Source: a virus
Lineage: Duplodnaviria > Caudoviricetes
Direction: 5' to 3' (one strand)
Length of the DNA stretch: 59,071 bases
IMG/VR virus record: IMGVR_UViG_3300048589_000569
Span: 1-59,071 of that record
Positions within the stretch are counted from its first letter, which is position 1; each line of letters begins with the position of its first letter. The position numbers and the translations under genes were made by a program. The notes under the pieces are model-generated. The model was not told the DNA's origin, ran no database searches, and worked only from the letters and a program-made list of their open reading frames with translations. Shown piece by piece: positions 1 to 59,071 of this stretch.

Positions 1-3
1 CCA

Positions 4-129
4 AATATCAACATGTTGAATCACTTCAGGGCTGACCAATCCTAGAAATCCAAACAAAATCCTCGCTACCCCCGTCGGCCCCCTCGTCCGCGGGTGAAAG
101 GGGGGGTCAAAGGCCTTTTTCCCCTACTA
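4..129. repeat. left copy of 126-bp terminal direct repeat
   Basis: Identical to 58946-59071. The first 3 nt (CCA) do not match the bases preceding the right copy (GGT). Confidence 0.95.
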
Positions 130-373
130 AAACCTAACAACCCCTTGTTCCCCCCTCATTTCCCCACCTCCTCCCCCCTCTTTTCCCCACGTAACCCCCT
201 TACGGCCCCTCCTGACCCCAAAAACCGCCCTCACCCCCTCCCTTTCCCTCCAATCGGCCCCTCTCTATGACCACTTACTTCCTTTTAGTACTTCTAACAA
301 CAACATATATATATATATACACACAATAGGAGCGTGCGTAAGACTTCATACCCTCCCGTGCCTACAATACCCC

Positions 374-910
374 ATGACCAAGCCCGACCCCTACATCCAG
401 CCGCCCCTCTCCTTCTCCCACCCCACCCTCATCCGGATGCCCAACATCGACGCCGCCTACATCATCCCCTACCACCTCCTCTCCCTCTACTTCCTCCGCG
501 TCCACGGCTCCTACGACGCCGCAGCCGCCGCCCTCTGCATCACCCGTCCCGCCCTCATCTCCCGCGTCCAAACCATCTTCGGCAAGATCTCCATCTCCCA
601 CACCCTCCACGAGGGTGCCTACGACGACGAACTCCGCCCCCTCATGTACCTCCCCTTCGCCCTCGCCCACCAAATCCCCGTCCTCTCCGACGGCAACGTC
701 GTCTGGACCCCCTACAACTGGATCCCCGGCTGCCCCATCCCCCCCCACTTCTACTCCCTCGACCCCTCCTACATCTTCTCCGACGACGACCCCCGCATCC
801 AATCCATCGCCAACTTCATCGCCCCCGAGTTCGCCATCAACGCCGGAGCCATCCCACCCCACCCCGACCTCCGCCTCCGCTCCGAACCCCACACTCCCCC
901 CAATGCCTAA
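374..910 (+). CDS. hypothetical protein (178 aa)
   Basis: ATG ORF with protein-like composition and C-ending codons like the neighbouring genes. Overlapping frames give Pro/Arg or Ser/Thr low-complexity shadows. Confidence 0.7.
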   Translation: MTKPDPYIQPPLSFSHPTLIRMPNIDAAYIIPYHLLSLYFLRVHGSYDAAAAALCITRPALISRVQTIFGKISISHTLHEGAYDDELRPLMYLPFALAHQIPVLSDGNVVWTPYNWIPGCPIPPHFYSLDPSYIFSDDDPRIQSIANFIAPEFAINAGAIPPHPDLRLRSEPHTPPNA

Positions 911-930
911 CCCCACCCCAAACCCATTAG

Positions 931-947
931 ACCTCGCGGTCGCTTAA
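931..947 (+). repeat. dispersed motif ACCTCGCGGTCGCTTAA, intergenic copy (representative of ~19-21 copies)
   Basis: Core CCTCGCGGTCGC on + at copies starting 931, 5464, 8899, 14787, 23149, 23674, 27708, 30815, 32749, 42924, 53030; on - at 3819, 18135, 21301, 30297, 39789, 42455, 49012, 57305. Near-matches at 13968 and 17041. Confidence 0.95.
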
Positions 948-992
948 ACTCCCCTCTCCTTCTCCGGCCTTCGCTCTCGCATAGGAAACCTC

Positions 993-2360
993 ATGGCAAC
1001 AAACTTCCCCGAACTCGCTGAACGCTTCATCGAGGAGCACTACACCCTCGGCGAAACCTCCACCCTCCGTCGCTACGAGGGCAACTGGTGGGTCTGGCGT
1101 CATCACCACTACACCCCCGTCCTCAACGATGTCATTCGCGCCGAACTCTACGACTTCTTCCGCGACAGTCTCGTCCTCTCCAAGTCCGCCATCGACAACC
1201 TCATGGACTCTCTCAAGGCCGCGGTCCAGGTCCGTTCCCCCTCGATGCCTTGCTGGGTCGCCTCCGGTTCCCACTACCCCCGGCCCGAAGATGTTCTCGC
1301 CTTCACCAACGGTTGGCTCTCCATCCCCGAACTCCTCGAACGCAAGCCCCGCCTCAACCCTCCCACCCCCCTGTGGTTCTCCTCCGAACACTGTGCCTTC
1401 AACTACCGCCCCAACGACGAGTGCCCCACGTGGCTCCGCTGTCTCAACGACTGGTTCCCTGACGACCCCGACTCCCAGAACCTCCTCCAGGAATGGTTCG
1501 GCTACTGCCTCACCTCTGACACCGCCCACCACAAGTTCCTCTTCCTCATCGGTCCACCCCGAACAGGCAAGTCCACCATCCTCAACGTCCTCCAAACCCT
1601 CCTCGGCGGAACTGAGCAGGTCGCCTCCACCACCCTCCAATCCCTCGGCGGCGAGTTCGGCCTCCAACCCCTCATCGGCAAGAACCTCGTCCAGATGGGT
1701 GAGTTCCGCATCTCCAACACCAAGGACCACTCCGAAGGCCTCCAACGCATGATCTCGATCATCGGCGAGGACCCCATGTACGTCCGCCGCAAGCGCATTG
1801 ACGACCTTGCCTCCTACAAGTTCACCACCCGCTTCATGGTCGCCGGAAACATGGTCCCCCGTCTCTCCGACTCCTCGGGCGCCCTCCTCGAACGAATGCT
1901 GCTCCTCGACCTCGAGTACGCCCGCCCCATCATCGACTGTCCGGACACCGGCCTCTATCCCAAACTCATCTCGGAGGCCTCCGGCATCCTCAACTGGGCC
2001 ATCGAGGGCCTCATCCGCCTTCGCACCAACGGACGCTTCTCCCAGCCCCAGACTTCCACAGATCGCCGCAACGAGTTCGAACTCGAACTCAACCCCCTCT
2101 CCGAGTTCGTCCGCGAATGTCTCACCGTCTCCCCCAATGTCGGCGACATTCCCGCCGCCGACCTCTACTACGTGTACACCAAGTGGCACGAGAAGTACAG
2201 AGCCGGTCGCTCTCCCTTCACCTCCCTCATCTTCGGTCGTTACCTCACAGGCGCCGCGTCCGGACGCATCCGTCTCCGTCGCGCTACCCGCGTCAATCCC
2301 GAGCCTCACTTCGTCGGCTGTCGCTTAACTCCGAGTTGGGCTGGACTCGTCAAGCCCTGA
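993..2360 (+). CDS. P4/D5-family SF3 helicase (primase-helicase C-terminal type)
   Basis: D5_N-like region (AFTNGWL), Walker A GPPRTGKST, motif C-like AGN, ILNWAIEGL, and a C-terminal winged-helix-like segment (DLYYVYTKW...FGRYL). Confidence 0.85.
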   Translation: MATNFPELAERFIEEHYTLGETSTLRRYEGNWWVWRHHHYTPVLNDVIRAELYDFFRDSLVLSKSAIDNLMDSLKAAVQVRSPSMPCWVASGSHYPRPEDVLAFTNGWLSIPELLERKPRLNPPTPLWFSSEHCAFNYRPNDECPTWLRCLNDWFPDDPDSQNLLQEWFGYCLTSDTAHHKFLFLIGPPRTGKSTILNVLQTLLGGTEQVASTTLQSLGGEFGLQPLIGKNLVQMGEFRISNTKDHSEGLQRMISIIGEDPMYVRRKRIDDLASYKFTTRFMVAGNMVPRLSDSSGALLERMLLLDLEYARPIIDCPDTGLYPKLISEASGILNWAIEGLIRLRTNGRFSQPQTSTDRRNEFELELNPLSEFVRECLTVSPNVGDIPAADLYYVYTKWHEKYRAGRSPFTSLIFGRYLTGAASGRIRLRRATRVNPEPHFVGCRLTPSWAGLVKP

Positions 2361-2375
2361 CCAGTACAATCAAAC

Positions 2376-2873
2376 ATGGGGCCCCCCGAAGAAAACTTCG
2401 TCGCCAATGACGACCGCAACCTCATCGAGACCTTCGACGCCACGAAGGAACACTCCATCGTTCACGTTCCCTCCGAACAGAACTCCCTCACCCTCTCGAA
2501 GGAGTTCTTCTCGTGGGAAGCCATCGAACGGGCCCTCCGCGAACTGGGCTTCTCCGCCTTCGAAGAGGTCGAGATGGTCGTCAGGGGGATGCAGGACACC
2601 TACCGCAAAGGCGACTATCACAACTGCCTCCGCTTCATGAACCAACTCAACTCCCTGTTCTCCCGACGTATGCAGGCCAACGCTCAGAAGGTAGTCACCC
2701 GTGCAACACGAGTATCCGACGACGGAAACGATTCAGTTGTTATGGAAAGGCATTCCACTGACGCATTCATGGAGCGATTCCTTGATGCCCCGTCTCCAAA
2801 GCCTTCAACTGAAGCATACCGGAGTCATCTGCGGGCACCAGTGGAAAGAGATCTTCCGAGCCCGAGCGAATGA
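2376..2873 (+). CDS. hypothetical protein, possible terminase small subunit
   Basis: 165-aa helical ORF upstream of TerL; function inferred from position only. Confidence 0.45.
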   Translation: MGPPEENFVANDDRNLIETFDATKEHSIVHVPSEQNSLTLSKEFFSWEAIERALRELGFSAFEEVEMVVRGMQDTYRKGDYHNCLRFMNQLNSLFSRRMQANAQKVVTRATRVSDDGNDSVVMERHSTDAFMERFLDAPSPKPSTEAYRSHLRAPVERDLPSPSE

Positions 2874-3417
2874 CTTCCTCTCCACCCCTCCCCACAAACG
2901 CCCCCTTCTTCCCGTCATCAAAGAACCGTCACGTCTGAAAGGAGTCCCTATCCCCATGCGTTCGAAGATCAAGAATCCCTGCAACCTCGACCCCCTCTTC
3001 CTCCAAGAGTTCGACGAACACTTCCGTTCCAAGTACGATCCCGTCTACAAGTCCGATTACCTCGTCGAGATCCTCCGCTCTATGGGATTCGACTCTCGCA
3101 CCATCTGGTCTCGCATCCTCAACGGCGACCGAGTCCAGTCCACCCTCACCATCCGCTCCGACATCATCCTCAACAACGACGACGACTACCAGGACTGGGT
3201 TTACGCCCTCCTCTCGTGGATGTTCGCCGAGAACGGTTTCATCCCCTCTCCCGAAGTCGCCGCCCTCCGCGTCTTCTCCACCGCCTGCGTCCGTTGGCTC
3301 AACTTCAAACTCGCCCTCGACGAACCCCTCCCCACCGCCCCCCTTTCCCCCGTTCCCTACAAGCCCGAAGCACCCCCCACCAAGAGAGGTCGTCCGCGTA
3401 AGAACCCCATTCAATGA
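2701..3417 (+). CDS. hypothetical protein with C-terminal AT-hook-like motif (true start uncertain, probably 2870-2956)
   Basis: Ends ...TKRGRPRKNPIQ; its stop overlaps the TerL ATG (ATGA). Confidence 0.6.
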   Translation: MQHEYPTTETIQLLWKGIPLTHSWSDSLMPRLQSLQLKHTGVICGHQWKEIFRARANDFLSTPPHKRPLLPVIKEPSRLKGVPIPMRSKIKNPCNLDPLFLQEFDEHFRSKYDPVYKSDYLVEILRSMGFDSRTIWSRILNGDRVQSTLTIRSDIILNNDDDYQDWVYALLSWMFAENGFIPSPEVAALRVFSTACVRWLNFKLALDEPLPTAPLSPVPYKPEAPPTKRGRPRKNPIQ

Positions 3418-5357
3418 AAGTCGTTCGGATCGAGAAAGAAGGCAACCCCAACTTTCCGCTGCCCGCGAACTACGCTGACATTCTCAAGCGTAACTCGCAG
3501 GCCGCGGCCTTCTTTCGTTTCAATGCCCTCTGTCAGTGGAACCTCGAAGACCTCTCCCCCGAGAAGAAGGCCGAGTACTTCAACGACTGCCTCCGCTTCC
3601 TCGACACCTTCTACCTCCAGAATCCCCAAGGCCGCTTCTATCCCCCCGGCGAATTCCGTCGCTCCCCCGAGTTCCACAACGACATCCTCCAATCCCTCAT
3701 CCTCTACAAGTACACCGCCGTAGCCGCCCCTCGTGGTCACGCCAAGTCGTACTTGATGCTCAAGATCTGCCTCCTCATCCTCCTCACCTGCGTCGACTTC
3801 GAAATCACCTACATGACGGCGACCGCGAGGTTGGTGAAGCGATTCTTCACCAAACTCATCCGCACCCTCGCCCACAACGAACTCCTCAAGTCCGACTACG
3901 AACGCTTCTACTCCAAACCCATCAAGCCCACCCGAGGCGACGGCGCTTGGTCTTCTCAGGGCCTCCTGCAACTCTCCAACGGCGCCGTGATCACCGGCTC
4001 CTCCCCCGGCTCAACCAACCGAGGCGATCGTCCCAACCTCATGATCGTCGACGACATCGAAGACGACTACGAGGACACCACCGATTCGCAGAAGGCCCGC
4101 GACGACGTGTTGGAGACCATCTTCCGCGTCATCATCCCCATGGTCTCCATGGGCGATCGCAAACTCCTCTGGATCGGCACCCTCATCTCCCGTCGTCACG
4201 TCCTCACGGGCGTCATGTCCGACGACAACAACGACTCCGAATTCCGCGACCGCCGCTTCGACCATTGGTCCCGCCTCTCCTTCAAGGCCCGCTACGAACT
4301 CCCCTCCGGTGGATTCGAGATTCTGTGGCCTGACCTCTACACCGAAAAGCGCCTGAAAGAGATCGAGCAGGAAGTCGGTTCCGACATCTTCCGTGCCGAA
4401 TACCTCAACGAGCCCGGTCACGAAGGCGACAAGTCCTTCTTCCTCGACGAGAAGAAGCACGCCTATCAACTGGATGACCTGGACGCTTTCACCGCCGCCA
4501 ACCCCCTCCTCTCCGAATCCAACATCACCTACTTCGACCGCAAGTTCGAGAAGCGAACCCTCCCCCTCAAGGACTTCCTCAACAACAGCCTACGCTTCAT
4601 CACTGTGGACTGGGCCCTCTCCGTCGGCCCCTCCTCCGACTTCTCGGTCGCCACCGTGATGTGCCTCACCCCCCACAACGAACTCTTCGTCCTCGACCTC
4701 TTCGTCGGTCGCGTCACCCTTTCCGACCTCACCACCCAGATCATGCGTCTGGTCGACAAGTGGCGCATCTCCATCGTCGGCGTCGAAGCCCCCTCGGTCC
4801 ACGGCGAACTGATGCATCTCGTCCGCACCGCTATGGACAACTACGCGGAGGCCAACGGCAGGAAGCCCAAACTCATCAAGATCCCCCAGCACAAGGGCAT
4901 GGCCAAGGAACGCTACATCGAAGGTCTGATGTGGCGGTTCGGCGACCGCAACGACGAGAAGAGTCCAGGCTACATCAAACTCCCCTTCTTCAACCGCTCC
5001 AAGTCCCCATGGCGCCAACTGTTCCAGCAGATCCAGGACTTCTCCCCCCTCGTCAAGGGCGGAGGTCTGGAGCACGACGACATCCTCGAAACCATCTCGA
5101 TGTCCCACCGTGTCATCCCCGGCAAGCCCATCCTTCGCCCCTCCGACATCACCGGCGAGGAGACCGAGTGGGACCGTATGCTGGCGGGCGAGTTCACCGA
5201 CCCCACCACCGGAGACTCCTACCTCTCGGGCGCCGACTTGCTGCGAATTAACCCCGAAGCACTCCAGAAGTTGCTTGATATCGCAAGAGAGAAGCACTAC
5301 GATCATAAGGAGACCAACTATGGCAAAGACCCCCTCAACCCGCGTTCGCGGTTCTAA
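3414..5357 (+). CDS. terL: terminase large subunit
   Basis: Walker A APRGHAKS, RGDRPNLMIVDDIED (Walker B), WIGT coupling motif, RNase H-like ITVDWA...SDFS, VGVE and HDDILE. Confidence 0.92.
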   Translation: MKVVRIEKEGNPNFPLPANYADILKRNSQAAAFFRFNALCQWNLEDLSPEKKAEYFNDCLRFLDTFYLQNPQGRFYPPGEFRRSPEFHNDILQSLILYKYTAVAAPRGHAKSYLMLKICLLILLTCVDFEITYMTATARLVKRFFTKLIRTLAHNELLKSDYERFYSKPIKPTRGDGAWSSQGLLQLSNGAVITGSSPGSTNRGDRPNLMIVDDIEDDYEDTTDSQKARDDVLETIFRVIIPMVSMGDRKLLWIGTLISRRHVLTGVMSDDNNDSEFRDRRFDHWSRLSFKARYELPSGGFEILWPDLYTEKRLKEIEQEVGSDIFRAEYLNEPGHEGDKSFFLDEKKHAYQLDDLDAFTAANPLLSESNITYFDRKFEKRTLPLKDFLNNSLRFITVDWALSVGPSSDFSVATVMCLTPHNELFVLDLFVGRVTLSDLTTQIMRLVDKWRISIVGVEAPSVHGELMHLVRTAMDNYAEANGRKPKLIKIPQHKGMAKERYIEGLMWRFGDRNDEKSPGYIKLPFFNRSKSPWRQLFQQIQDFSPLVKGGGLEHDDILETISMSHRVIPGKPILRPSDITGEETEWDRMLAGEFTDPTTGDSYLSGADLLRINPEALQKLLDIAREKHYDHKETNYGKDPLNPRSRF

Positions 5358-5670
5358 CATCACCCTCTCGTTCGATCAACTGCTCGAACTCATCCGCACC
5401 ATCCAATCCCCAACCCCCAAACCCACCCCCCGCCCCATCCACCCCCTAACAGCGGAACCCCTAACCTCGCGGTCGCTTAATTCTCATGAGGGTGTGGAAA
5501 TGGATCTGGATCGGAGGTTGGGTCCTTCGAATGAACCGCCTCCCGCCGTGAGGCACCTCGGGAGACGAGCGGCGACGGACGAGGAGAGGGAGAGGATGAA
5601 GGAACTGAAGAAGGTGATGTCCGGCGAAGTCAACGACCTCATGGAGGACAGTGCTGCTGGTGGGGAGTGA
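5320..5670 (+). CDS. hypothetical protein (116 aa)
   Basis: In-frame ATG at 5320 within ORF 5110-5670; fills the gap between TerL and portal. Confidence 0.6.
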   Translation: MAKTPSTRVRGSNITLSFDQLLELIRTIQSPTPKPTPRPIHPLTAEPLTSRSLNSHEGVEMDLDRRLGPSNEPPPAVRHLGRRAATDEERERMKELKKVMSGEVNDLMEDSAAGGE

Positions 5671-5673: not shown

Positions 5674-7692
5674 ATGGCTAATCAAGGGTTGAACTATAGC
5701 GTTCTGCCGACAAAAGCAGAGGAGTTGGTTACAGCCCTCGATTGGCACATCGACCGGGAACTCGACTTCTATTCGTGGGATCGAGTGCTCCACTGGCTCA
5801 TTCACCTCTACATCATCGGCAAGCGGGACTTCAAGGTCCTGGACTGGAAGACCGGACGCATCAAGATTTCCACCGTTGATGCGGATGGCAACTTCAACTT
5901 CCGGCACCAGAAACTCACCGCCTACCTGAACGACCTCAAGGGTCAGTTTCAGGGGGTGAATGTGTGGCCCCTCGTTGAGAAGAGAGGTGCCGGTATTGAG
6001 GCGGTCAGACGGAGGGCGTTTGCTCAGGCGGTCGCTGATTCCGTGACTGACAAGGCCAACCTCGACCGAGTCTTCGATCACGTCCTCACCAACCTCATGC
6101 AGATGGGGTGCGCTGCCATCTCTTCGGATGTGATGGATAGCGGGGCGGGGTTCCTGACGGCTGAGCATGAGTCTGTCCACCCCCACGAACTTCTCCCCTA
6201 TCCCCACATCGGGCATGATAGGGCTAGGGAGTCGGGTATCGTTCGGAGGCGGTGGGTCTCGCTGTCGTTCCTGAAGGCGAAGTTGGATGCTCGTAAGGTG
6301 GCCGCTAACATCGAGAAGATGGAGTTGGCCGAAGTCAACTTCGGCGATGAGCCCATCGACCGGGATGGGTGGCGTGACTTTGACAACTCCTCGGGTACGG
6401 GCGGGTGGACGTACTCGAACAGCAAGAAGAGGCGGATCGGGAATGAGATTCCGAAGGGTTCGGAGATCAAGGCCCTCCTCGAAGAGGTGTGGCTGTATGG
6501 GCCCGGCAGGAATGTCGCTCGGTACATTGTGAAGTGTGGGGGTTGGATCGCGAAGGACATGTCGTATGGGACGGAGGAGAATCCAGGCCTGTACCCCTGT
6601 CCGATCTCCATGGAGAGGTTCCTCGACGACAATACGTGGTATGGGCAGGGGCCCGGCCACCTCCTCCTGCATGCCAACCGCGAAGCCGAACTCCTCCTTA
6701 GCCGTCTGTTTGAGAACGTGAGGGAGATTGAGCAGTCGTCGGTGTTGGTGATGCCCCGTGACACGGTCGATTATCGGAATGGGCTGCACAACATCGGGAA
6801 GGGGATGAAGTTGCTCCAGGCGGAGATTGATCCGTCGCTGGACACGTTCAAGCCCTTCCTCATTCAGCCCCACAACAGCGGAGACTTCCCCGGCAAGGTG
6901 GCAGAGTTCGCCAACCGGATGATGATTGACATCGTGCCCCTGTCTCCCATGGCGTACGGAGAGGCGCCGGGTAGAGTGGACTCAGCCTCGGGCCTCCAGT
7001 TCATTGATCAGCAGAGCAAGATTCGATTCACCAGCGCCTACAACGCCATCGAGCGGCTGTTCGGCAACGCTCACCGCTATGTCACGATGAAGACATCGGA
7101 GGAGATGGCTGATCAGGGGATGGGAATGAAACTGGTGAAGATGTCCGAGGATATGGTGGGTCTGGTGTTTGATCCTGAAACGGGCGAATTCATGGCCCGC
7201 AACAACGTGACTCCCGATCCTAGAGGGCTCGACTTCAAGATCATCATGGACGAGCCCACCTACAAGTTGTCTCTCAAGAGAGAGGCGATTGAGATGTTCA
7301 ATCTGAATCCCGACCTCATCGGACTCATCCTGTTCTGTTTGAAGAATGGGTTGGATCTGGCGATGTATACGGGCATGGAGGAAGCGGCGTACAGGAAGGC
7401 CGTGTTCAACCTCCTCGTCATGTTTGGTGACGGTGAGACTCCGGGCCGTATCAAGGACAACGTGCAGAACTACATGCCCGACATCCAGATCAGGGTCATG
7501 AACACGTTTATGGCCGGACCTGAGTTCGTATACGCTAGTGCGGCTGTTCAGACCGAGTTCAACAACTACGTGAATGATTTGAAGATGGCCAGCGGAGGCA
7601 AGTTGCCCCCCGGCCTACCCAACCCCGACGACTTGGCGATGGTCATGGGCCAGCCGCCGTCGACCCCCGAAGGAATGAGTTATGGCGGATAA
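5674..7692 (+). CDS. portal protein
   Basis: 672 aa, between TerL and scaffold; portal-like segments (WYGQGPGHLL, GEAPGRVDSASGLQ). Confidence 0.8.
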   Translation: MANQGLNYSVLPTKAEELVTALDWHIDRELDFYSWDRVLHWLIHLYIIGKRDFKVLDWKTGRIKISTVDADGNFNFRHQKLTAYLNDLKGQFQGVNVWPLVEKRGAGIEAVRRRAFAQAVADSVTDKANLDRVFDHVLTNLMQMGCAAISSDVMDSGAGFLTAEHESVHPHELLPYPHIGHDRARESGIVRRRWVSLSFLKAKLDARKVAANIEKMELAEVNFGDEPIDRDGWRDFDNSSGTGGWTYSNSKKRRIGNEIPKGSEIKALLEEVWLYGPGRNVARYIVKCGGWIAKDMSYGTEENPGLYPCPISMERFLDDNTWYGQGPGHLLLHANREAELLLSRLFENVREIEQSSVLVMPRDTVDYRNGLHNIGKGMKLLQAEIDPSLDTFKPFLIQPHNSGDFPGKVAEFANRMMIDIVPLSPMAYGEAPGRVDSASGLQFIDQQSKIRFTSAYNAIERLFGNAHRYVTMKTSEEMADQGMGMKLVKMSEDMVGLVFDPETGEFMARNNVTPDPRGLDFKIIMDEPTYKLSLKREAIEMFNLNPDLIGLILFCLKNGLDLAMYTGMEEAAYRKAVFNLLVMFGDGETPGRIKDNVQNYMPDIQIRVMNTFMAGPEFVYASAAVQTEFNNYVNDLKMASGGKLPPGLPNPDDLAMVMGQPPSTPEGMSYGG

Positions 7693-8569: not shown

Positions 8570-8591
8570 GGTTCTCCCAAGGGGGTGACAG

Positions 8592-10058: not shown

Positions 10059-10082
10059 TCCACGGGGGTTCTGAAAGGGGGA

Positions 10083-48790: not shown

Positions 48791-49366
48791 TTATCGGTGA
48801 TCTCCGTCGCCAGTGAGGGTGCCTCGTTGCTGGCGTGAGTTGAGTTTCTGGAGGTTGCGATTGCCGATCTCATCGAAGTGCTGAGAACCGATGGTTTCAC
48901 AGAAGATTTGGTAGGCTTCGAGAGTGGTGAGGTAGATCTTGCGAAGTCGATCGGGTGTGATGCCTTCGTCGCCTGGGCGAAGAGGCTTCTTGATGATGTT
49001 GCAGAGACGTGAAGCGACCGCGAGGCAGTCCTTCATGTCGGAGCGGAAGTTGAGGGAGCGGTGGGTGGTGAGGCCTTCGAAGAGGGAAGTGGGGTCGTCG
49101 GTAGTCTTGAAGTAGAGGAGGAGAAGGGAGAAGTACCAACGGCAGTCGCCCGCCTCGTCGTATGAGTCGGCGACGGTGAGTGGGGCGTCGCCAGCGAGGA
49201 GTTCGGCCAACTCACCGACAAGGCCGAGGATGAAGTAGTCGAGACGGTTGAGGGGGAGGAGGGCGGTGAGGACGGCTTGCTGTTGATAGTCGGAAGGGTA
49301 GTCGGAGCAGATGGGGGTGATGGGGGGTTGGTCAGGAAAGGAGATGTGAGGGGTCTGTGTCGTCAT
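48791..49366 (-). CDS. MazG-like nucleotide pyrophosphohydrolase
   Basis: LGLVGELAEL, DEAGDCRWY, NLQKLNSRQQRGTLTGDGDHR. Confidence 0.8.
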   Translation of the reverse strand: MTTQTPHISFPDQPPITPICSDYPSDYQQQAVLTALLPLNRLDYFILGLVGELAELLAGDAPLTVADSYDEAGDCRWYFSLLLLYFKTTDDPTSLFEGLTTHRSLNFRSDMKDCLAVASRLCNIIKKPLRPGDEGITPDRLRKIYLTTLEAYQIFCETIGSQHFDEIGNRNLQKLNSRQQRGTLTGDGDHR

Positions 49367-52309: not shown

Positions 52310-52310
52310 A

Positions 52311-55300
52311 CTAACTCCTATCTGTGAGGTTTGCGGCCTTCAATGACAGACGGGCCAGGGTGCGTGAATGGGTGAGTTCGGTGAGATGAACAAGGACCAA
52401 AGTGAGAACGACGAGAGGCCAGAACACTAGCGACCTCGAACGAGGTCTTCGTCGGGCTCCTCGTTCAGACGTTCGGTCAGGTACGCTTCGATCCGTTCGA
52501 GTAGGCAAGCGTCGTCTACCTCCTTTCCTTCGAGGGTTACCGAGTCGACAACGGCGACATAGTTACCCGTGTAGTAGGAGTAGGCGTCGAAGCCATCGTA
52601 CCAAGGCAACGACTCCTTCTCCACCGAGAACTCCACCTCATACTCCACGTCGTCAAGGTCAATCTTCATCGAGATAATCACACTCCACTTTGTTGTCGCA
52701 GTAGTGAAGGAGTCCTTTCAAACGAACGACGTTGAGTTCTGCGGGGATTATTACATCTTCTCCTGTCTTGAGGACAGTGGCATGGACGTGAGATCCAGTG
52801 CTATCAACGAACGACCTTCGAATGAGAGGATTTTCTGTTTCGGGGTAACGAAAGATTTCTCCTTTGACCATACGACCGACTGGAATGGTTGTGCCCGACG
52901 TGGCTACGCATTTGACTTTCATGAGGGCTCCTTGGGAATGGAAATGCCCCCGCCATCCGGGGAGGACAGCAGGGGCAGTCTCGGCTACGACCTGCCACTT
53001 CGGAGCAGCGAACACGAAAGGCACGAATGACCTCGCGGTCGCTTAACGGTCAGGTGTGCTGAGTGGTGGGATCAGCGACGACCAGCGAAGAGGTCGCGGA
53101 GTTGGTTACCCAGATTCGACAGGAACGAGTCGACCGGGTCCCCCTGCTTGCAGCAGTCATCGGAAGAACAGAGGTCGACGGTGCGACCGCGATCAGAGTC
53201 GATGGAGGGGGTGGGGGTTGGGAGGTAGTTGGGGAGGTTGAGGGCCTGCTTGATAGCCTCACCGAGAGTCTCCAGGTCGTCGAACCACGCAAACGCTTCG
53301 AGGTCGATGATGGGGTTGCCATCCTCGTCGTGGAGGTTGTCGTCGTCGATGGTGGAGCCGGTGACGGGAGTGGAGAAGGAGTAGGGGGAGGAGGAGGTGG
53401 GGCGAGAGAGGGCGAGGAAGGGGCGTCGCTTCTGGAAGTTGAAGGCGGAGTACTTGACGACGTTGGAGTCGGCGGGGATGGGCATCGAGATGATGCGCAC
53501 CTTGGCTTCGGACGAACGGAGGGTCATGAGGGCGGAGATGGCCGCGTCGATCTGAGAAACAGTGAGAGACATACTGCAATCCTTTCCTAGGAAGGAAACA
53601 ATGAGACACTCCCTACAGCGGGAGTTAGTCGGATGAGGGGGGTTGCTTGAGGGCTTCGGTGTAGATAGAGCCATCGAAGTCGAGGTCGGACAGTTGGTCG
53701 TTGAATGCCTGTTCGATCTCCAACAACGTAGGGTCGTCGTCGGCGAGGGGGCCGTTGGGACCGGTGATGTTGGTGATGTAGATGGTGTCGGGTTCGGAGT
53801 TGGCGATCGAAGATTGGACAGTGAAGGGGCCGCCGGGAAGGTTGACAGTGTGGTAGAAAGACAGACCGACGAACTTGAATTCCATGTTAGTGTTCCGAGT
53901 CGAGTGAGGTGAGGAGGGCGGCGACGATCTGTTGTTGCTCGGCCTTTTCGATGAGCAAGGCCAATCGCTTCACCTCCGATGAGGGGTAGGAGATGGAGTG
54001 GCCCTTGCCCGTCCGAACGGTAACGAGGTTTCTCGTCGTGTCAATGATGACGGTGGATTTGGAGGCGGTGCGGGGGCGAGAATGGAAACGATGCTCTTTG
54101 AGTTGGGTGGTGGTCTTAGCCAAAGAGGTAACTCCACGTGTCGATGACCATACGGAACAGGGCGACACTCGCGATCGCGGCGACAGCCCCCATGAAAAAG
54201 CCGACGGCCAGCATCACGAACGCCGTGCCCGCCAACGATTCGAACACCTCGTCGTCATCCTTGAGCAGGATGAGCGGCTGTTCTCCTTCTTCCATATCAG
54301 TCTCCTTCTCTGCGTTTGATGTATTCTTCGTGCTTTGCTATCTGCTCGTCGAGCAACGCTCTTCGTTCGCGTTCGAGTTGGTCAGGGTCGATGTCATAAA
54401 ACATCGAGACGAGTTGAATGTCTGACTTATGGGTTCGGAAGTATTCACCGAAGGAGTCAGTCTCGCAGATCGAATACCCTTTCGATCCAAGCCATTCGAT
54501 GAACTCTAGGACACGAGAGCCCCCATCACAAAGGGCATCTGCCCATTTGTCGATCATGTCTCTTTGCATCACGCACCTCCCTTCACGTCGGCCTGCGATG
54601 CGTCTGCGCGGCTCGCGGCCTGCGCCGTCTCGCTGGAGATGCGGGAGAGGAACGCTTCAAGCCGATTGAGGTCGCCTATCGCTGGCCGGTGGGCGACCTT
54701 GAACATCGCAAGGCACCACTTCAGTTCGTCGTACATCTCCCCCGCGTGCTTCGTGAGCGGGGTTTCGGGGATCAGGCGGTGGACGAGGGTGTCGGGATTG
54801 AGCACCGCGCCGGCGCCGAGGCGAACGCCTGTCGCATTCCTCGATTCGACGAGTTGCGGCATACCCGCGCCCACGCGACTGCGAAGGCACACGGTCTCGC
54901 CTACGGCAAGGTCGCCGAGCGGGTGGAGGATGGGTTGGGTGGGGTCAGGCATTGTGTTCCTTTCGTGAGTGAGGTTAGTCCCATTCGTCTTCGAAGTCAT
55001 CGTCGTCGACGCGACCGCGGAGGAGATTGTGGTGACAGGAGGAGAGGACGGAGGGGGCTTCGAGATCGACAGAGGTGCGGCCAGTGGCTTTCTGGATAGA
55101 GTCGGCGATGTCGAGTTTGCGTGTGATTGCTTCGAAGAGGTATGGAGCAAGGCGCTCGACGGTCGCTCGGTACATAGTTCGATAGGATTCGACTGGCATA
55201 GTCGAAGGCCTATCCCCGTAGAGGTACTTGGCTCGACGACTCTTCTCGAGGGGGGCATTGAGGTCGCGATTGATGAGTTCGGTGGCTGCGATGAGTGGAC

Positions 55301-56363
55301 GAAGAATCAAGTTGATGGTGTTGATGAGGTGAGTGTCGTCCATCGCACAGACGTACATCTTTGTACCTTCAGCAGTTGTGTGAGTGTGCATGGGGTTCCT
55401 TTAGCGGAGGGTGGAGTGGGTGTGGAAGAGGTAGAGACCTAAGCGTTCGTAGTGGTGGATGGAGTTGGCATGGCCGACCGGGACGAATTGACGACCCCGA
55501 TCAACGTAGACGATGGCCCCGTCGATAGGTCCGCCGTGGGCGAGGAGAGGGAAACCATCGTACATGGAGCAGTTGGGGTTGTTGGAGAGGGATTCGACTG
55601 CGTAGGTGTCGAGGAGGTGGTGAGAAGTGTCGGGGTGGATGTCTTCGTCTGTGAAGTCGAGCAAGTTTGGTTCGTGCGGCACAGCGATTCTCCTTTCAGG
55701 CGGGGGTTGGAACGGTGAGGTTGTACTTGAGACCCAGTGCGATGAGTTGTTCAGGCGTAGTGTTGCCTGAGTCGTGCCACGACTGGAGAGCACTAAGGAA
55801 GCCTACGTCTTTGCCGAAGTCCGGGTCGTCCGGGGACATGTTGAGGTGAACGAGGATTTCACCGACGAGGCGACGCCTTTTCGATTCCATTGACTCCGGA
55901 AATCTAGTCACAACGTCGAAGATGGCGCGGACTGTGTTGCCCCCGAACTGTTGTTCGAGGCGGACGGTGAGGGGTTTGGGGAGGAGACAGGCGAAGGCGC
56001 AACCTGGATGGCCGGGGGACACCATATCTCCATCGTACGTACACCCGTTCCCCCTCGCACCGATCCTTGCGAGGGAGCGGGGGAGGGAACGGGTGACGAA
56101 GGTGTCATACACACGGTCGAAGGCGGCTTGTCTGTCGAGCACGGGATTCTCCTTCAAAAGGGGATGATTGGCTTGAGGATGAAGATGTCGCGGTCTTTGT
56201 CGATAAAGGTTTTGTCTCCGCTTGCGAACATGACCTCGATGCTACGATCGCGGTCTCTAGTGTCAGCAATCACCAGAGCGTTGTGACCGTCTACCACAAC
56301 GGCGTCGCCATATCTTGCGTCCTTAGCCTTTGATGTGACACGAGAGGCTGCTGGGTTACACAT
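52311..56363 (-). other. array of small early-region hypothetical genes (e.g. 52427-52681, 52659-52922, 53072-53572, 53625-53885, 54116-54295, 54297-54572, 54569-54952, 54975-55391, 55401-55679, 55696-56157, 56154-56363)
   Basis: Tightly packed - strand ORFs with AGGA/GGAG RBSs; no recognisable domains. Confidence 0.6.
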
Positions 56364-56393
56364 GATGGTCCTTTCAGGAATGAGGGGGTGGAA

Positions 56394-56468
56394 TGACCTC
56401 GGCAGGATTTGAACCTGCGTCTTCCGCTTGAGAAGCGGATGTCATGAGCCGGACTAGACTACGAGGCC
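56394..56468 (-). tRNA. tRNA-Glu(CUC)
   Basis: Acceptor GGCCTCG/CGAGGTC, anticodon arm TCCGC-TTCTCAA-GCGGA, T-arm GCAGG-TTCAAAT-CCTGC. Confidence 0.9.
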
Positions 56469-56515
56469 GGAAAGACCCCAGGAAGGGTCAAGAGAGTTGA
56501 GAACGGGAACGACGA

Positions 56516-56758
56516 TCAGTTGCGGATGGTGAGAATGGAGTCAGGGAATGACTCAACAAGAATGGATGATCTGAACTGAAACAGAGTTGCGGTCTCCAAG
56601 TTGATGCAGAGGGAGTAGTTGGAGTCGACGTTGATTTTGAAGTGGTTGGGATTGACCCGCATGTAGAATAGGTTGGGGGCATCGGAGAAGCGGAAGGGAA
56701 CTCCGATGGCGAGACCACAGAGAGGCTTTGAGCCGGTGATGTTGTGTTCGATCTCCAT
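56516..56758 (-). CDS. hypothetical protein (80 aa)
   Basis: AGGAG RBS plus ATG at 56758. Confidence 0.55.
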   Translation of the reverse strand: MEIEHNITGSKPLCGLAIGVPFRFSDAPNLFYMRVNPNHFKINVDSNYSLCINLETATLFQFRSSILVESFPDSILTIRN

Positions 56759-56851
56759 GAGGTGACTCCTGAGGGTGGGGGGTTGGGAAGGAAGAAAACC
56801 CCGCAACCCCGGGGGAGGGAGAGGGGGCCGGAGAAAGGGCATGAGTCGTGG

Positions 56852-57196
56852 TTATGTGTGTTTGTCTGAGAACACTGCGGTGACTCGTGCTTCGCCTGTA
56901 ACTTGCGGAAACATGCTTCGTTCGAAGATTGCAAACCTCAATGGTTTGTTGGTAGGAAGATATCCGTTTTTGGCGCAAGTCGCATACACTAGGAGGTCTA
57001 CGAGTTGGTTCACTTGTGAAGGTTCAAGTTTAGATAGAGTTTGAATCAAGTGAAGTTGAAGGTAGAGAACCATAGACCCTTTCAAGTCAAAGGCGAAGTC
57101 GATGTCGTACATCTTTGTGGTGTCATCTAAGGTGTGTGGGTAGACGACGAGATGATGAACGAGTCTGGGGTCTGGATCAAATGGTGCTTTGGACAT
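56852..57196 (-). CDS. hypothetical protein (114 aa), lower GC
   Basis: AAGGAG RBS plus ATG at 57196. Confidence 0.6.
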   Translation of the reverse strand: MSKAPFDPDPRLVHHLVVYPHTLDDTTKMYDIDFAFDLKGSMVLYLQLHLIQTLSKLEPSQVNQLVDLLVYATCAKNGYLPTNKPLRFAIFERSMFPQVTGEARVTAVFSDKHT

Positions 57197-57225
57197 ACTT
57201 GTCTCTCCTTCAAGGTGCGGATGTG

Positions 57226-57259
57226 AAAAAACCCCCATGCCCGTTAGAGCGGTGGGGGT
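57226..57259 (-). terminator. rho-independent terminator
   Basis: ACCCCCA...TGGGGGT stem followed by a T run on the - strand. Confidence 0.6.
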
Positions 57260-58133
57260 CGGAGAGGGATGAGGCATGATTTGGATAAGGGGGGGGGTGA
57301 AACCTAAGCGACCGCGAGGTCAGGGGGTTGAGGGGGTTAGGGGAGGGAGGGGCGGCAGTTGGGGGAGGGGACGTGTTTGGTGCGGCGGCGGTAGCGACGT
57401 GGGGCGCGGGAGCCGTCGAAGAGGGGGTGGTGCTTGTCGCCGGAGATGGAGTAGCGGTTGGCGGTGGCGGAGGGGGAGACGCCGATGGGGGGGTCGGTGA
57501 GGTGGGAGCGGCGACAGGCGACGCCGCGGACGCCGAGGGATTCCCGGGCGGGTTGAAGGTGGGTGGGGCCACGGTCGGGGCGAAGGACGCCGATTGAGGT
57601 CCGGTCGAGCATGGATGAAACTCCTGGGAAAGGGTGTGACGAGTTGAAAGCCGGAACGACCCCCGCTGGGGAGTCGTCCGGGGTTTGTACAGCCACGGGT
57701 CGCGTTGGCTGGAACGCCCGAATCCTTCAAGGGTTGTGTTGTGTGGGTGCCCGACCGTTCGACGCTGATTCAAGCGTCCGGCGCATCCCCCGATTGGGGG
57801 ACACTTTCCCGTTGCGCAGTATCCGGAGCGGTACAGAGGGAGGGGGGGTAGCCGGATAGACCGGCGGCGCCGGGCGGATCAGTCGGCCCTGTCCACTAGG
57901 GGGAGGGGATGATCGGCCATGACGCAGCGTATGCGCGTTGGGTGGGATTCGCACTCCACCGCCGATTGGCGGTTGTCTAGGGCGGGGGTCGCTTCCGTGG
58001 ATCCCCGATCCCGGCTTTCTCGCGGCCCTAAGGCGGAGAGAGAGCGGAGAACGAGGGGAGCGACCCGTACCGAGTGCGCTCGCCCGATCCGTTGTCTAGG
58101 TCGGTGGGCGAGAGGGGGAAGGTAGGAAGCACG

Positions 58134-58155
58134 AAACCCCCGCTTTCACGGGGGA
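58134..58155 (-). terminator. terminator-like hairpin
   Basis: CCCCCG-TGAAAG-CGGGGG followed by TTT, downstream of ORF 58180. Confidence 0.5.
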
Positions 58156-58179
58156 GAGTGTATGTTAGCGGATGCTTAC

Positions 58180-58701
58180 TTAGAACCCTTCAGACTTGTA
58201 GGCGGACGCGAGAGCAGCACGCACGATCTTAGCGGATTCGCCCTTGTCACCGAGGACACGCAAGACGTCGGCGGGGCGGATGGTGGAGGTGTTCGGGACA
58301 CCAGCGGCTCGGGTGCCGGGGGGAAGGTCGCGGACGGATGAGCGGATGGCGGTCAACTCGCGCTCGGAATCGGCGATACGCTCGTCAACGGACGCGAGCG
58401 CAGAGCGGGAAGCAGCAGTGACAGACGCCGTTGATTCGGGGGAGGCGAAGGAAAGGATGAGAGCGGATGCGGCGTCCAGGGCGGCTCGGTCGGCCCGGGC
58501 GCGCTTGATCGAGGATTGGACGGATGCGCCGACACCGGCAAGGTAGGTGAGGGTACGCCCGTCGGTGAGGCGATCGTCGGCGATGCGCTTAGCCCAGGGG
58601 TAGGGGGAAGCGATGGGGGCGGGGGCGGGAGGGGTGTCCTGCGCCGGGGCGTCGATGGGGGCGACGGGGGCGGGGGTGGTGAGGGGGCGTGCTTTCGGCA
58701 T
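58180..58701 (-). CDS. hypothetical protein, first gene of the leftward arm
   Basis: GGAG RBS plus ATG at 58701; Ala-rich helical. Confidence 0.6.
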   Translation of the reverse strand: MPKARPLTTPAPVAPIDAPAQDTPPAPAPIASPYPWAKRIADDRLTDGRTLTYLAGVGASVQSSIKRARADRAALDAASALILSFASPESTASVTAASRSALASVDERIADSERELTAIRSSVRDLPPGTRAAGVPNTSTIRPADVLRVLGDKGESAKIVRAALASAYKSEGF

Positions 58702-58910
58702 TGCAAGATACTCCGACAAGGGGTGAATGCTCCCCCTCGACGTGAAGGGGAGCGGGAATCGGACAAGGGGAGTATCGGCGCAAAGTGGGGAAGAGTCTAC
58801 TAGGGGAAACACCGGGATTGAAGAAACTGGGGGAAGCACTGGGGACACCTCGAATAGGGGGGTCTGGTTGAAAGGGGGTTGTACTGGGAGACAGGAATGC
58901 TGTGAGACAG

Positions 58911-58948
58911 TAATGAGGGTGGGGGGGTAATGAGGGTGGGGGGGTAAT
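58911..58948 (+). repeat. 17-bp G-rich tandem repeat (TAATGAGGGTGGGGGGG x2)
   Basis: Read directly; abuts the right terminal repeat. Confidence 0.9.
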
Positions 58949-59071
58949 ATCAACATGTTGAATCACTTCAGGGCTGACCAATCCTAGAAATCCAAACAAA
59001 ATCCTCGCTACCCCCGTCGGCCCCCTCGTCCGCGGGTGAAAGGGGGGGTCAAAGGCCTTTTTCCCCTACTA
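58946..59071. repeat. right copy of 126-bp terminal direct repeat
   Basis: Identical to 4-129. Confidence 0.95.

What the first reader, a model, noticed from the sequence alone, without database searches (positions are those of the whole stretch)
1..59071. End-to-end skew gradient with an abrupt G-to-C reversal at the terminal repeat
Seen: 100-5400 is extremely C-rich on + (almost all codons end in C). Same-strand genes at 23700-26000 are instead G-rich (G-ending codons), and 43000-58945 is largely G-rich. The switch back to C-rich happens across the 126-bp repeat. Inference: this is what many internal origins on a linear template predict, since forks near the left end all move left and forks near the right end all move right. 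The repeat would then be the physical genome end or an absolute fork barrier, not an arbitrary assembly break.
Basis: partly seen in the sequence, partly recalled or inferred. Interest (0 to 1): 0.72.

Follow-up and report, generated by a model that had tools for sequence, protein, structure and literature searches.

The report
Strand-skew sawtooth in a phage genome
In this uncultivated phage genome the balance of G against C flips abruptly at one spot and climbs back along the rest, and distant relatives show the same pattern whichever way the genes point, so it probably reflects how the DNA is copied or cut.

Summary
On the + strand, 130-5463 is strongly C-rich (skew -0.36) and 43000-58945 is G-rich (+0.26). 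The cumulative skew maximum falls at 58944, one base from the right copy of the exact 126-nt repeat.

Inside the window, gene strand and position are confounded: every gene left of 27.5 kb is on +, every gene right of it on -. Models with step plus strand, linear position, or motif sites as origins fit about equally.

Ten complete distant relatives break the tie. All carry the same switch point, S. In 6 of 10 a minus-strand helicase operon lies in the C-rich block, so the genes on both sides of S share one orientation while the skew still flips. The skew is continuous where orientation changes.

The skew is therefore a DNA-strand, position-dependent asymmetry with a weaker coding-strand C preference added. 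By the standard sign, forks or single-strand exposure run toward S.

The "many origins" detail is unproven. Whether the 126-nt repeat is a physical end could not be tested, because no reads were available. The repeat looks like an assembly overlap, yet S is an assembly-break hotspot across the family.

The parts
4..129 (.). Left copy of the 126-nt terminal repeat. Bases 1-3 (CCA) are not part of it.
   Evidence: Exact match to 58946-59071. Own composition G 26, C 40. No unusual fold: z +1.68.
58946..59071 (.). Right copy of the 126-nt terminal repeat, flush with the contig end. The + to - skew switch S lies at its left edge.
   Evidence: Cumulative GC skew maximum at 58944.
58910..58948 (+). 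Perfect 17-nt tandem repeat (GTAATGAGGGTGGGGGG, 2.3 copies) that runs into the first bases of the right repeat copy. G7 runs lie next to the contig break.
   Evidence: sequence.
58712..58945 (.). G-rich, purine-rich non-coding flank left of S.
   Evidence: G 103, C 34, skew +0.50, AT skew +0.24. That it is non-coding is my reading: the likely start codon of the last - strand gene is near 58711.
130..373 (.). C-rich non-coding flank right of S, ending in an (AT)n/(AC)n tract at about 300-330 just before gene 374-910.
   Evidence: G 19, C 107, skew -0.70. Sequence. C-rich tandem units at 148-199.
130..5463 (+). C-rich block. All its genes are on +: 374-910, 993-2360, 2376-2873, 2701-3417, 3414-5357. 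Skew at 4-fold sites is -0.44 to -0.96.
   Evidence: Pooled 4-fold skew -0.80.
993..2360 (+). D5-like (P4-family) helicase gene. It is on the same strand as TerL here but on the opposite strand in every relative with a hit. Coding-strand 4-fold skew is -0.88 here, and positive in 27 of 39 relatives.
   Evidence: PHROG primase families, E 4e-59. Pfam DUF5906 and D5_N. Orientation. Skew.
3414..5357 (+). Large terminase gene. Uniformly C-rich at 4-fold sites (-0.61 to -0.83 in eight bins of 80 codons).
   Evidence: phrog_38, E 5e-50.
5464..5478 (+). Copy of the dispersed motif ACCTCGCGGTCGCTT, lying exactly at the abrupt - to + skew step between TerL and the portal gene. The 100 nt to its left have skew -0.71, the 100 nt to its right +0.21.
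5674..27201 (+). Virion-gene arm on the + strand. It includes the portal-sized gene 5674-7692, an SU10-adaptor-like gene at 10666-11568 and a 1161-aa gene at 22920-26405. 4-fold skew is about 0 with dips to -0.6, rising to +0.2 to +0.5 at 23.8-26.1 kb.
   Evidence: The homologous genes lie in the same order in 10 relatives.
28041..58956 (-). DNA-metabolism and early-gene arm on the - strand: RNR with an intein, Sak4-like protein, PD-(D/E)XK nuclease, ERCC4 nuclease, a UDG-PolA fusion with an intein, ThyX. The coding strand is C-rich, so the + strand is G-rich. The skew is patchy: +0.5 to +0.9 in most genes, about 0 to +0.3 at 33.9-40.4 kb and 46.2-48 kb.

Best explanation
The skew is mainly a property of the DNA strands set by position, not by gene direction. 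One fixed point, S, lies at the repeat (58945/130). On both sides of S, the strand whose 3' end points toward S is G-rich. The imbalance is strongest next to S. It falls to zero within about 5 kb on the right, with an abrupt step at 5464-5478, and persists for about 50 kb on the left.

By the standard rule that the leading-strand sequence is G-rich (inferred, not shown here), replication forks run toward S from both sides. Most initiation would then occur about 5.4 kb to the right of S, with perhaps some dispersed along the rest. S would be a fork-convergence point: either the physical ends of a linear, terminally redundant genome (T7-style, origin near the left end) or a fixed terminus or barrier next to the helicase gene.

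A second, weaker effect is added: a coding-strand preference for C, about -0.14 to -0.27 in this window. That is why the - strand arm looks strongly skewed and the + strand virion genes look nearly neutral.

Shown: position dependence, conservation, and independence from gene orientation. Inferred: that replication is the cause, the fork directions, and the physical nature of S.
For: 1. S is sharp and sits at the repeat.
2. Ten complete relatives (TerL 28-33% identical to the window's by tblastn; 11 shared genes, same order in all 10, helicase inverted only in the window) all have a C-rich arc. It begins 0.3-3.2 kb beyond the helicase gene in 8 of the 9 with a helicase hit.
3. In the 6 relatives that have minus-strand genes inside the block, those genes show + strand 4-fold skew of -0.23 to -0.85. 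Minus-strand genes elsewhere in the same genomes show +0.30 to +0.68.
4. Per-gene lists show no jump where orientation flips (helicase versus the + genes) but the largest jump at S, where both neighbours are minus-strand genes. In G001 the values are +0.97 then -0.93. The sequence of L029 at S shows a gene start, a hairpin and a gene stop, all on one strand.
5. The helicase gene is on the strand opposite TerL in 39 of 39 loci with a hit (80 examined), and on the TerL strand only here. The + strand is nonetheless C-rich in both arrangements.
6. TerL (-0.71) and the portal gene (+0.02) are adjacent genes on the same strand, with an abrupt step between them. TerL skew varies among relatives from +0.05 to -0.66.
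7. In G003 and G007 strand alone explains 1% of the per-gene variance, and a block model explains 61-65%. AT skew at 4-fold sites follows the DNA strand in the classical G+T versus C+A manner.
8. Within one orientation the skew rises with distance from S in 10 of 11 genomes, for both orientations (Stouffer Z 6.4 and 7.3).
9. Intein inserts are less skewed than their host genes: -0.15 against -0.66 in PolA, and -0.30 against about -0.63 in RNR. This is expected if resident DNA drifts toward a local equilibrium.
10. Unequal or unidirectional replichores read from GC skew are already described for phages and chromids (passages of 10.1101/2021.08.26.457843, and of PMC7858055).
Against: - In the window alone, strand and position are confounded and the models cannot be separated.
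- In this window AT skew at 4-fold sites follows the coding strand, not the DNA strand: T exceeds A on the sense strand in both arms. This is not the classical replication signature.
- The minus-strand arm of the window is patchy, and my hand-made gene list shows no significant trend there.
- S was located from the skew itself, so tests built on S are partly circular.
- Gene calls in the relatives come from a crude caller of my own based on G+C periodicity.
- G006 shows almost no pattern.
- In relatives the region at S holds iteron-like repeats beside the helicase gene: GTGACG-type in G001, AGCTGTCA-type in G007. That would also suit an origin at S, which needs the opposite skew sign.
- A few + strand genes embedded in the minus-strand arm of relatives are C-rich on +, for example G003 49.2-51 kb and G005 29.5 kb. 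So the coding-strand effect is not negligible.
- No reads and no experiment bear on fork direction or on the ends.
Confidence: 0.5

Rival explanations
1. Composition specific to gene class or transcription unit. Early and DNA-metabolism units have a C-rich sense strand and virion genes a neutral or G-rich one. In this window the flip at the repeat is then simply the divergent start of two C-rich operons. No DNA-level process is involved.
For: - In the window both flanks of S are 5' ends of divergent units with a C-rich sense strand.
- Strand alone explains about 50% of the per-gene variance.
- AT skew is linked to the coding strand here.
- Second codon positions are also C-rich in the most skewed genes.
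- The skew is patchy gene by gene in the minus-strand arm.
- Some + strand genes inside the minus-strand arms of relatives are C-rich on +.
Against: - It needs four unit classes with opposite signs in relatives. The helicase unit would have to be G-rich in 27 of 39 relatives but C-rich here.
- + strand skew is continuous across the orientation flip inside the block, yet flips at S between genes of the same orientation.
- TerL and the portal gene, neighbours on one strand, differ by 0.7.
- The sign is opposite to transcription-coupled deamination of the non-template strand (recalled knowledge, no call).
Confidence: 0.15
2. The genome is a linear template on which many internal sites, the copies of ACCTCGCGGTCGCTT, each act as an origin. 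Fork direction, and so skew, then changes gradually from all-leftward at the left end to all-rightward at the right end.
For: - The 20 motif copies (0.19 expected by chance) sit at upward skew steps. For + copies the mean right-minus-left difference is +0.18 (400-nt windows, 100 nt excluded on each side, 10 of 12 positive) and +0.16 (1000-nt windows, 11 of 12 positive). None of 2000 random sets reached these values (one search gives +0.17 for the 1000-nt windows).
- Same-strand gene boundaries without the motif show no step: -0.02 to +0.01 over 56 boundaries.
- The largest step, at 5464, lies exactly at a copy.
- A fork-direction curve built from the motif positions gives R2 0.651, against 0.579 (sd 0.05) for 20 random sites, p 0.049.
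- Several segments between copies decline in a sawtooth manner.
- By fork-direction logic, ascending skew means dispersed initiation (passages of PMC4729899).
Against: - The fit is no better than step plus strand (0.654) and only marginally better than random sites.
- Minus-strand copies show no step: -0.02, 2 of 8 positive.
- Only 13 of 21 inter-motif segments decline.
- Part of the step comes from a C-rich tract that belongs to the extended motif.
- The different dispersed motifs of the relatives show weak or no steps in G007, G008 and G010.
- G003 and G007 have plateaus, not gradients.
- G001, G004, G006 and G009 have no obvious dispersed motif, yet three of them share the skew pattern.
Confidence: 0.12
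3. S is a bidirectional origin beside the gene of its helicase, and in these phages the leading strand is C-rich, the reverse of the usual sign. The decay away from S reflects variable termination.
For: - S adjoins the D5/P4-type helicase gene in 8 of the 9 relatives with a hit.
- The regions at S in G001 and G007 carry clustered short repeats and AT-rich stretches typical of origins.
- The window has an (AT)n tract at about 300-330.
- The two gene arms diverge near S and converge near the antipode at 27.5 kb. That is the usual layout around an origin.
- The shape is that of a skew N-domain border, apart from the sign (passages of PMC4729899).
Against: - It needs a reversed skew sign. G003 and G007 show G coupled with T as in ordinary replication asymmetry, which by itself does not indicate a reversed sign.
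- The zero crossing lies only about 5 kb to the right of S, not at the antipode. G007 shows no skew change at the convergence point of the two gene arms.
Confidence: 0.12
4. S marks the physical DNA ends, and the asymmetry comes from repeated single-strand exposure of the 3'-ended strands. This would happen through 5'-to-3' resection during recombination or end annealing, rather than through fork direction.
For: - The sign fits: the 3'-ended strand is G-rich on both sides of S.
- The magnitude is greatest right at S on both sides, in the window and in G001, G004, G005, G007 and G010.
- The genome encodes a PD-(D/E)XK nuclease, a Sak4-like annealing protein and an ERCC4 nuclease.
Against: - Physical ends are not demonstrated.
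- The right-hand decay takes about 50 kb, far beyond plausible resection lengths.
- The flanks at S are purine-rich (G+A) rather than G+T as deamination predicts.
- The step at 5464 is abrupt, not a smooth decay.
Confidence: 0.1

Closest known systems
Replication-associated GC skew with origin and terminus switches in bacteria, plasmids and phages, including unidirectional or strongly unequal replichores
   Same: There are two polarity switches that do not depend on gene orientation. G is coupled with T in two relatives. GC-skew patterns read as unidirectional replication are reported for phage clades (passages of 10.1101/2021.08.26.457843). A chromid is reported whose second fork is blocked at a terminus next to the origin (passages of PMC7858055).
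   Different: The two switches are only about 5 kb apart on a 59 kb genome. The amplitude at 4-fold sites is extreme, about +/-0.8 to 0.9. In 8 of 11 genomes the long arm is a ramp rather than a plateau. Neither an origin nor a terminus is known experimentally.
Skew N-domains of the human genome (fork-direction sawtooth)
   Same: Both show one abrupt skew jump followed by a gradual return, read as a gradient of average fork direction (passages of PMC4729899).
   Different: Here the abrupt jump goes downward (+ to -) and the gradual part ascends, the mirror image. By that logic S is a fixed termination point and initiation is dispersed. The scale is kilobases, not megabases.
T7-type linear genomes with short direct terminal repeats and an internal origin near the left end (recalled knowledge, no call)
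   Same: The predicted skew is a short reversed left block and a long right arm, with the ends acting as natural termini. The window has a short terminal repeat of about 100-150 nt and a family A DNA polymerase. Clusters of short repeats lie next to the junction in relatives.
   Different: There is no detectable relationship to T7. TerL matches only Alteromonas podophages, at 21% identity, and the portal gene matches none of 50,697 phage records. Genes lie on both strands. Physical ends are unproven.
Protein-primed, end-initiated strand displacement as in phi29 or adenovirus (recalled knowledge, no call)
   Same: The asymmetry is polarised relative to the genome ends, with opposite signs in the two arms.
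   Different: My derivation predicts the opposite sign for that mechanism: the displaced + strand at the left end should be G-rich. No family B polymerase or terminal protein was seen among the 55 ORFs scanned.

Membership tests
Replication-type strand asymmetry (origin/terminus polarity switch) | The skew sign depends on position relative to fixed switch points, not on gene orientation. | tested here: met
   Met in relatives: (minus-strand genes in the block, same-orientation flip at S). In the window itself orientation and position are confounded, apart from the TerL/portal step.
Replication-type strand asymmetry (origin/terminus polarity switch) | GC skew and TA skew are coupled on the same DNA strand (G+T-rich against C+A-rich). 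| tested here: inconclusive
   Met in G003 and mostly in G007. Not met in the window, G004 or G005, where AT skew at 4-fold sites follows the coding strand.
Replication-type strand asymmetry (origin/terminus polarity switch) | The switch points coincide with a mapped origin and terminus. | not testable with these tools
   The lineage has no cultured member and no replication data.
Physical direct terminal repeat (linear genome with fixed ends) | The same sequence is present at both ends of the molecule. | tested here: inconclusive
   The 126 nt are exact, but offset by 3 bases at the left end. Relatives carry 99, 127 and 98+1 nt overlaps at arbitrary positions, typical of assembler overlaps. 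The overlap in G001 differs only in a poly-C run.
Physical direct terminal repeat (linear genome with fixed ends) | Read starts pile up at the ends and coverage doubles over the repeat. | not testable with these tools
   No sequencing run was listed. No near-identical contig was found.
Physical direct terminal repeat (linear genome with fixed ends) | Independent assemblies of relatives end at the homologous position. | tested here: inconclusive
   The contig end lies within 400 nt of S in 4 of 11 complete genomes. Of 39 loci with a helicase hit, 15 end 58-857 nt beyond the hit, 6 are cut inside it, and 18 run on for 1.1 kb or more (ranges). L032 and L026 end about 40 nt apart at S, while L029 (97% identical to L032 there) reads through. 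The breaks abut homopolymer runs, a tandem repeat or a hairpin, any of which can break assemblies on their own.
Skew driven by coding strand or codon usage | The skew sign follows gene orientation across the genome. | tested here: not met
   Strand explains 1% of the per-gene variance in G003 and G007 and 21-53% in the other genomes. Genes of the same orientation have opposite signs on the two sides of S. A coding-strand component does exist: c is about -0.14 to -0.27 in the window.
Fork-direction sawtooth (dispersed initiation, fixed termination) | There is a monotonic skew ramp within genes of a single orientation. | tested here: met
   Spearman rho is positive in 10 of 11 genomes for + genes and in 10 of 11 for - genes. 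The caveat is that S was chosen from the skew itself.
Fork-direction sawtooth (dispersed initiation, fixed termination) | Discrete upward steps occur at the candidate initiation sites (motif copies). | tested here: inconclusive
   The steps are clear for + copies in the window and in G002 and G003. They are absent for - copies in the window and weak in G007, G008 and G010.

The most novel reading that the evidence does not exclude
A whole lineage of uncultivated 50-65 kb phages replicates as linear molecules with fixed ends at S. Initiation is dispersed and stochastic along the genome, possibly at lineage-specific dispersed motifs that lie mostly on one strand. This gives a eukaryote-like fork-direction ramp written into the sequence as a single-tooth skew sawtooth.
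Probability: 0.15. Interest if true: 0.75.

Novelty: new variant of a known kind. Interest (0 to 1): 0.55.

Why it matters
GC skew is routinely used to place origins and termini in uncultivated phage genomes, but it is usually confounded with gene direction. In this lineage a natural inversion of the helicase gene, together with a minus-strand operon inside the reversed block, separates the two effects. The result is a very strong, position-set strand asymmetry.

If S is a physical end or a fixed terminus, the replication and packaging geometry of a phage family with no cultured member can be read from sequence alone. It can then be checked with a simple read-start analysis.

The work also gives a practical warning. 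A contig-end repeat at a meaningful place can still be an assembly overlap.

Tried and rejected
- **Reads.** The look-up of sequencing runs on window 1-3000: none was listed.
- **Near-identical contigs.** A 39-nt stretch of the repeat gave no match in viral contigs or metagenome contigs. TerL as a single protein found no relative in viral contigs or metagenome contigs.
- **Cultured relatives.** TerL gave only 21-25% matches in 6 records. The portal gene matched none of 50,697 phage records.
- **Structure of the repeat.** No better folded than shuffles.
- **Promoter and terminator scans** around both ends: nothing above shuffled expectation.
- **First two-state block fit.** The best 'block' in several genomes simply lumped all + strand genes together, so it did not separate the models. 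It was replaced by fits linearised at S.
- **Uniform coding-strand preference.** Rejected as the sole cause; see the membership test.
- **Recent inversion relic as the cause of the reversed block.** Rejected. The pattern is kept among genomes only about 25-35% identical in protein, and the inverted helicase of the window has the local skew, not the inherited one.
- **Rolling-circle replication alone.** Rejected, because it predicts one sign all round the genome (my inference).
- **End-initiated strand displacement.** Rejected on sign (my inference).
- **Supplements** of the cited papers were not consulted.

Full report
**What the window is**

The window is a complete IMG/VR virus record of 59,071 bases. 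IMG/VR classes it as linear, and CheckV rates it 100% complete. G+C is 59%, with G 19,000 and C 16,042.

Codon-position G+C periodicity and family searches give a simple gene map:
- Every gene from 374 to about 27,466 is on the + strand. These include a D5/P4-type helicase at 993-2360, the large terminase at 3414-5357, and virion genes up to a 1161-aa gene at 22920-26405.
- Every gene from 28,041 to 58,956 is on the - strand. These include ribonucleotide reductase with an intein, a Sak4-like protein, a PD-(D/E)XK nuclease, an ERCC4 nuclease, a UDG-family A polymerase fusion with an intein, and ThyX.

No cultured relative exists. TerL matches six phage records at 21-25% identity, and the portal gene matches none of 50,697 records.

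**Check of the observation**

The repeat is exact: 4-129 equals 58946-59071, with three unmatched bases at the left contig end.

- + strand skew is -0.56 in the first kb and -0.26 to -0.35 up to 5 kb. It is +0.20 to +0.27 at 24-26 kb and mostly +0.16 to +0.49 from 43 kb to the end, with near-zero patches at 46-48 and 54-55 kb.
- The block 130-5463 has G 1035 and C 2173.
- The cumulative skew maximum is at 58,944 and the minimum at 17,228, with or without circularisation.
- Across the junction, 150-nt windows read +0.60, -0.31 and -0.79. The non-coding flanks are themselves skewed, +0.50 and -0.70.

So the facts hold. 'Almost all codons end in C' is true only of gene 374-910 (86%). The other four left-end genes have 46-67%.

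**What the window alone can and cannot say**

The G-rich right arm is made of minus-strand genes, so their sense strand is C-rich, like that of the left-end genes. In this window the flip at the repeat therefore coincides with the divergent start of two gene arms.

At 4-fold sites:
- The five left-end genes have sense-strand skew of -0.44 to -0.96.
- Most minus-strand genes have -0.5 to -0.9, with neutral patches at 33.9-40.4 kb and 46.2-48 kb.
- The virion genes run from about -0.6 to +0.3.

Gene strand and position are fully confounded. On 94 gene pieces the fits were:

| Model | R2 |
|---|---|
| Strand alone | 0.50 |
| Linear position | 0.60 |
| Step at 5471 plus strand | 0.654 |
| Fork-direction curve from the 20 motif copies | 0.651 |
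| Same curve from 20 random sites | 0.579 (sd 0.05) |

Two in-window facts already argue against pure coding-strand bias. First, TerL is uniformly -0.61 to -0.83, while the next gene on the same strand, the portal gene, is about 0. The step between them falls within about 300 nt, exactly at a motif copy at 5464-5478. Second, the intein inserts are much less skewed than their host genes.

**Relatives**

A profile of three terminases retrieved 80 loci from viral contigs. I fetched ten complete records, G001-G010. They share eleven genes with the window. The order is the same in all ten, and the only difference is that the helicase is inverted in the window.

All ten have a C-rich arc on the TerL strand. 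It starts 0.3-3.2 kb beyond the helicase gene in 8 of the 9 with a helicase hit, and 6 kb beyond it in the weakly skewed G006.

The decisive point is gene orientation:
- The helicase homologue lies on the strand opposite TerL in 9 of 9 complete relatives with a hit, and in 39 of 39 loci with a hit among the 80 examined. Pfam confirmed three of them. Only this window has it on the TerL strand.
- The sense strand of the helicase gene is G-rich in 27 of 39 relatives, up to +0.85. Here it is -0.88.
- The + strand of that region is thus C-rich whichever way the gene points.
- In the six relatives with minus-strand genes in the block, these genes have + strand 4-fold skew of -0.23 to -0.85. Minus-strand genes elsewhere in the same genomes have +0.30 to +0.68.
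- The + strand skew is continuous where orientation flips inside the block. It jumps most at S, where both neighbours are minus-strand genes. In L029 the sequence at S reads gene start, hairpin, gene stop, all on one strand.
- In G003 and G007 strand explains 1% of the variance and a block model 61-65%, and AT skew follows the DNA strand together with GC skew.

A coding-strand component remains in the window, G004 and G005, with c about -0.14 to -0.27. A few + genes embedded in the minus-strand arms of relatives also behave as that component predicts.

**Shape of the profile**

After linearising at S, a straight ramp explains as much as or more than step plus strand in the window, G001, G004, G008 and G010 (0.73 against 0.57 in G010). 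A plateau fits G003 and G007 far better.

Within genes of one orientation, skew rises with distance from S in 10 of 11 genomes for each orientation. S was chosen from the skew, which inflates this somewhat.

The family picture is one abrupt downward jump at S. A steep recovery follows over about 5-10 kb, and then a slow rise or plateau back to S. By fork-direction logic, abrupt upward jumps mark fixed initiation and gradual slopes mark stochastic events (passages of PMC4729899). This mirror-image tooth therefore reads as fixed termination at S with initiation concentrated a few kb to its right, perhaps also dispersed beyond. Unequal or unidirectional replichores inferred from skew are known in phages and chromids (passages).

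That replication is the cause, and the sign convention itself, are inferences.

**The repeat and the ends**

The place is special. The contig end lies within 400 nt of S in 4 of 11 complete genomes. Fourteen of the 23 contigs of 30 kb or more end 1-8 kb upstream of TerL.

Of 39 loci with a helicase hit, 15 end 58-857 nt beyond the hit, 6 are cut inside it, and 18 read on for 1.1 kb or more. Some of these loci are near-duplicates, so the counts are not fully independent.

L032 and L026 end about 40 nt apart at S, while L029, 97% identical to L032 there, reads through.

The repeat itself is weak evidence for physical ends:
- G008, G006 and G009 carry 99, 127 and 98+1 nt terminal overlaps at arbitrary genome positions.
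- G002 wraps around by about 1.3 kb.
- The overlap of about 140 nt in G001 differs only in a poly-C run, and G004 ends in G runs.
- In the window a perfect 17-nt tandem array with G7 runs abuts the repeat.

Homopolymers, tandem repeats and hairpins at S could break assemblies without any physical end. No run was listed for a read-start test. I therefore leave open whether S is a physical end or a terminus.

**The motif**

ACCTCGCGGTCGCTT occurs 20 times, against 0.19 expected. Of the exact copies, 9 are on + and 2 on -.
- + copies sit at upward skew steps even when 100 nt on each side are excluded. The mean difference is +0.16 to +0.18, with 10-11 of 12 positive.
- - copies show no such step.
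- Gene boundaries without the motif show none.
- Part of the effect comes from a C-rich tract that belongs to the extended motif.

Six relatives (G002, G003, G005, G007, G008, G010) have dispersed motifs of their own, five different sequences since G008 and G010 share one. These lie mostly on the TerL strand in both gene arms and show weaker or no steps.

**Verdict**

The asymmetry is positional and polarised toward the repeat region, and is not simply codon preference. The many-origin mechanism and the physical-end reading remain untested.

Limits:
- Gene calls in the relatives come from a crude caller of my own.
- S was located from the skew itself.
- The relatives are distant.
- There are no reads and no experiments.
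- Supplements of the cited papers were not seen.

Noticed in passing
window 931, 3817, 5464, 8899, 14787, 17041, 18134, 21301, 23149, 23674, 27708, 30295, 30815, 32749, 39787, 42454, 42924, 49012, 53030, 57306 (start positions): A dispersed 15-nt motif, ACCTCGCGGTCGCTT, occurs in 20 copies with up to 2 mismatches, against 0.19 expected. Of the exact copies, 9 are on + and 2 on -, in both gene arms. It is often preceded by a C-rich tract (CCCCTAAC) and contains a small dyad, GACC-N4-GGTC. Function unknown. Candidates are a protein-binding site, a nick site or a unit boundary.
   Followed up: partly
G002, G003, G005, G007, G008, G010 (loci L089-L115): Six relatives have dispersed 11-15 nt motifs of their own, for example ACCTGGAGGGGGTG in G002 and TATCGGATGGGACT in G007. 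ATCAGTGGGGG is shared by G008 and G010. The motifs occur in 15-36 copies and lie mostly on the TerL strand whatever the gene orientation. G001, G004, G006 and G009 show none.
   Followed up: partly
window 993-2360: The D5-like helicase gene is inverted relative to all 39 relatives that have a detectable homologue. This is the natural experiment used in the report.
   Followed up: yes
window 40283-43939 (-) and 28041-30698 (-): The polymerase ORF fuses a UDG-superfamily domain to a family A polymerase and carries a LAGLIDADG intein-like insert at about aa 691-1050. The RNR gene also has a LAGLIDADG intein-like insert, at about aa 301-595. Both inserts have lower G+C and much weaker skew than their host genes.
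   Followed up: partly
window 33957-37690: A high-G+C island (0.66-0.68, against 0.59 for the genome). It holds a 964-aa ORF with no Pfam or PHROG match and a Peptidase_M64-like gene, with almost no skew. It may be a recent acquisition.
   Followed up: no
window 30640-31116 (-): The N-terminal domain of a dATP/dGTP diphosphohydrolase (PF18909, E 2e-12). From memory this domain is linked to phages with modified purines. None of the 55 ORFs scanned gave an adenylosuccinate-synthetase-like match, but PurZ was not searched for specifically.
   Followed up: no
window 27949-28021 (-) and 56394-56468 (-): Two tRNA genes: tRNA-Arg(TCT) at the point where the two gene arms converge, and tRNA-Glu(CTC).
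   Followed up: no
G007 39700-42100 (L105/L106); G001 first 300 nt and last 200 nt (L088/L085): In relatives the switch region is a long, mostly non-coding stretch. It holds clustered short repeats (AGCTGTCA/TGACAGCT and GTCAAC in G007, GTGACG/CGTCAC in G001) and AT-rich patches. It looks like an origin or a packaging signal.
   Followed up: partly
window 27708-27790: At the convergence of the two gene arms, a motif copy is followed by a strong G+C-rich hairpin (CCCCGG...CCGGGG). It is probably a bidirectional terminator. Read only.
   Followed up: no
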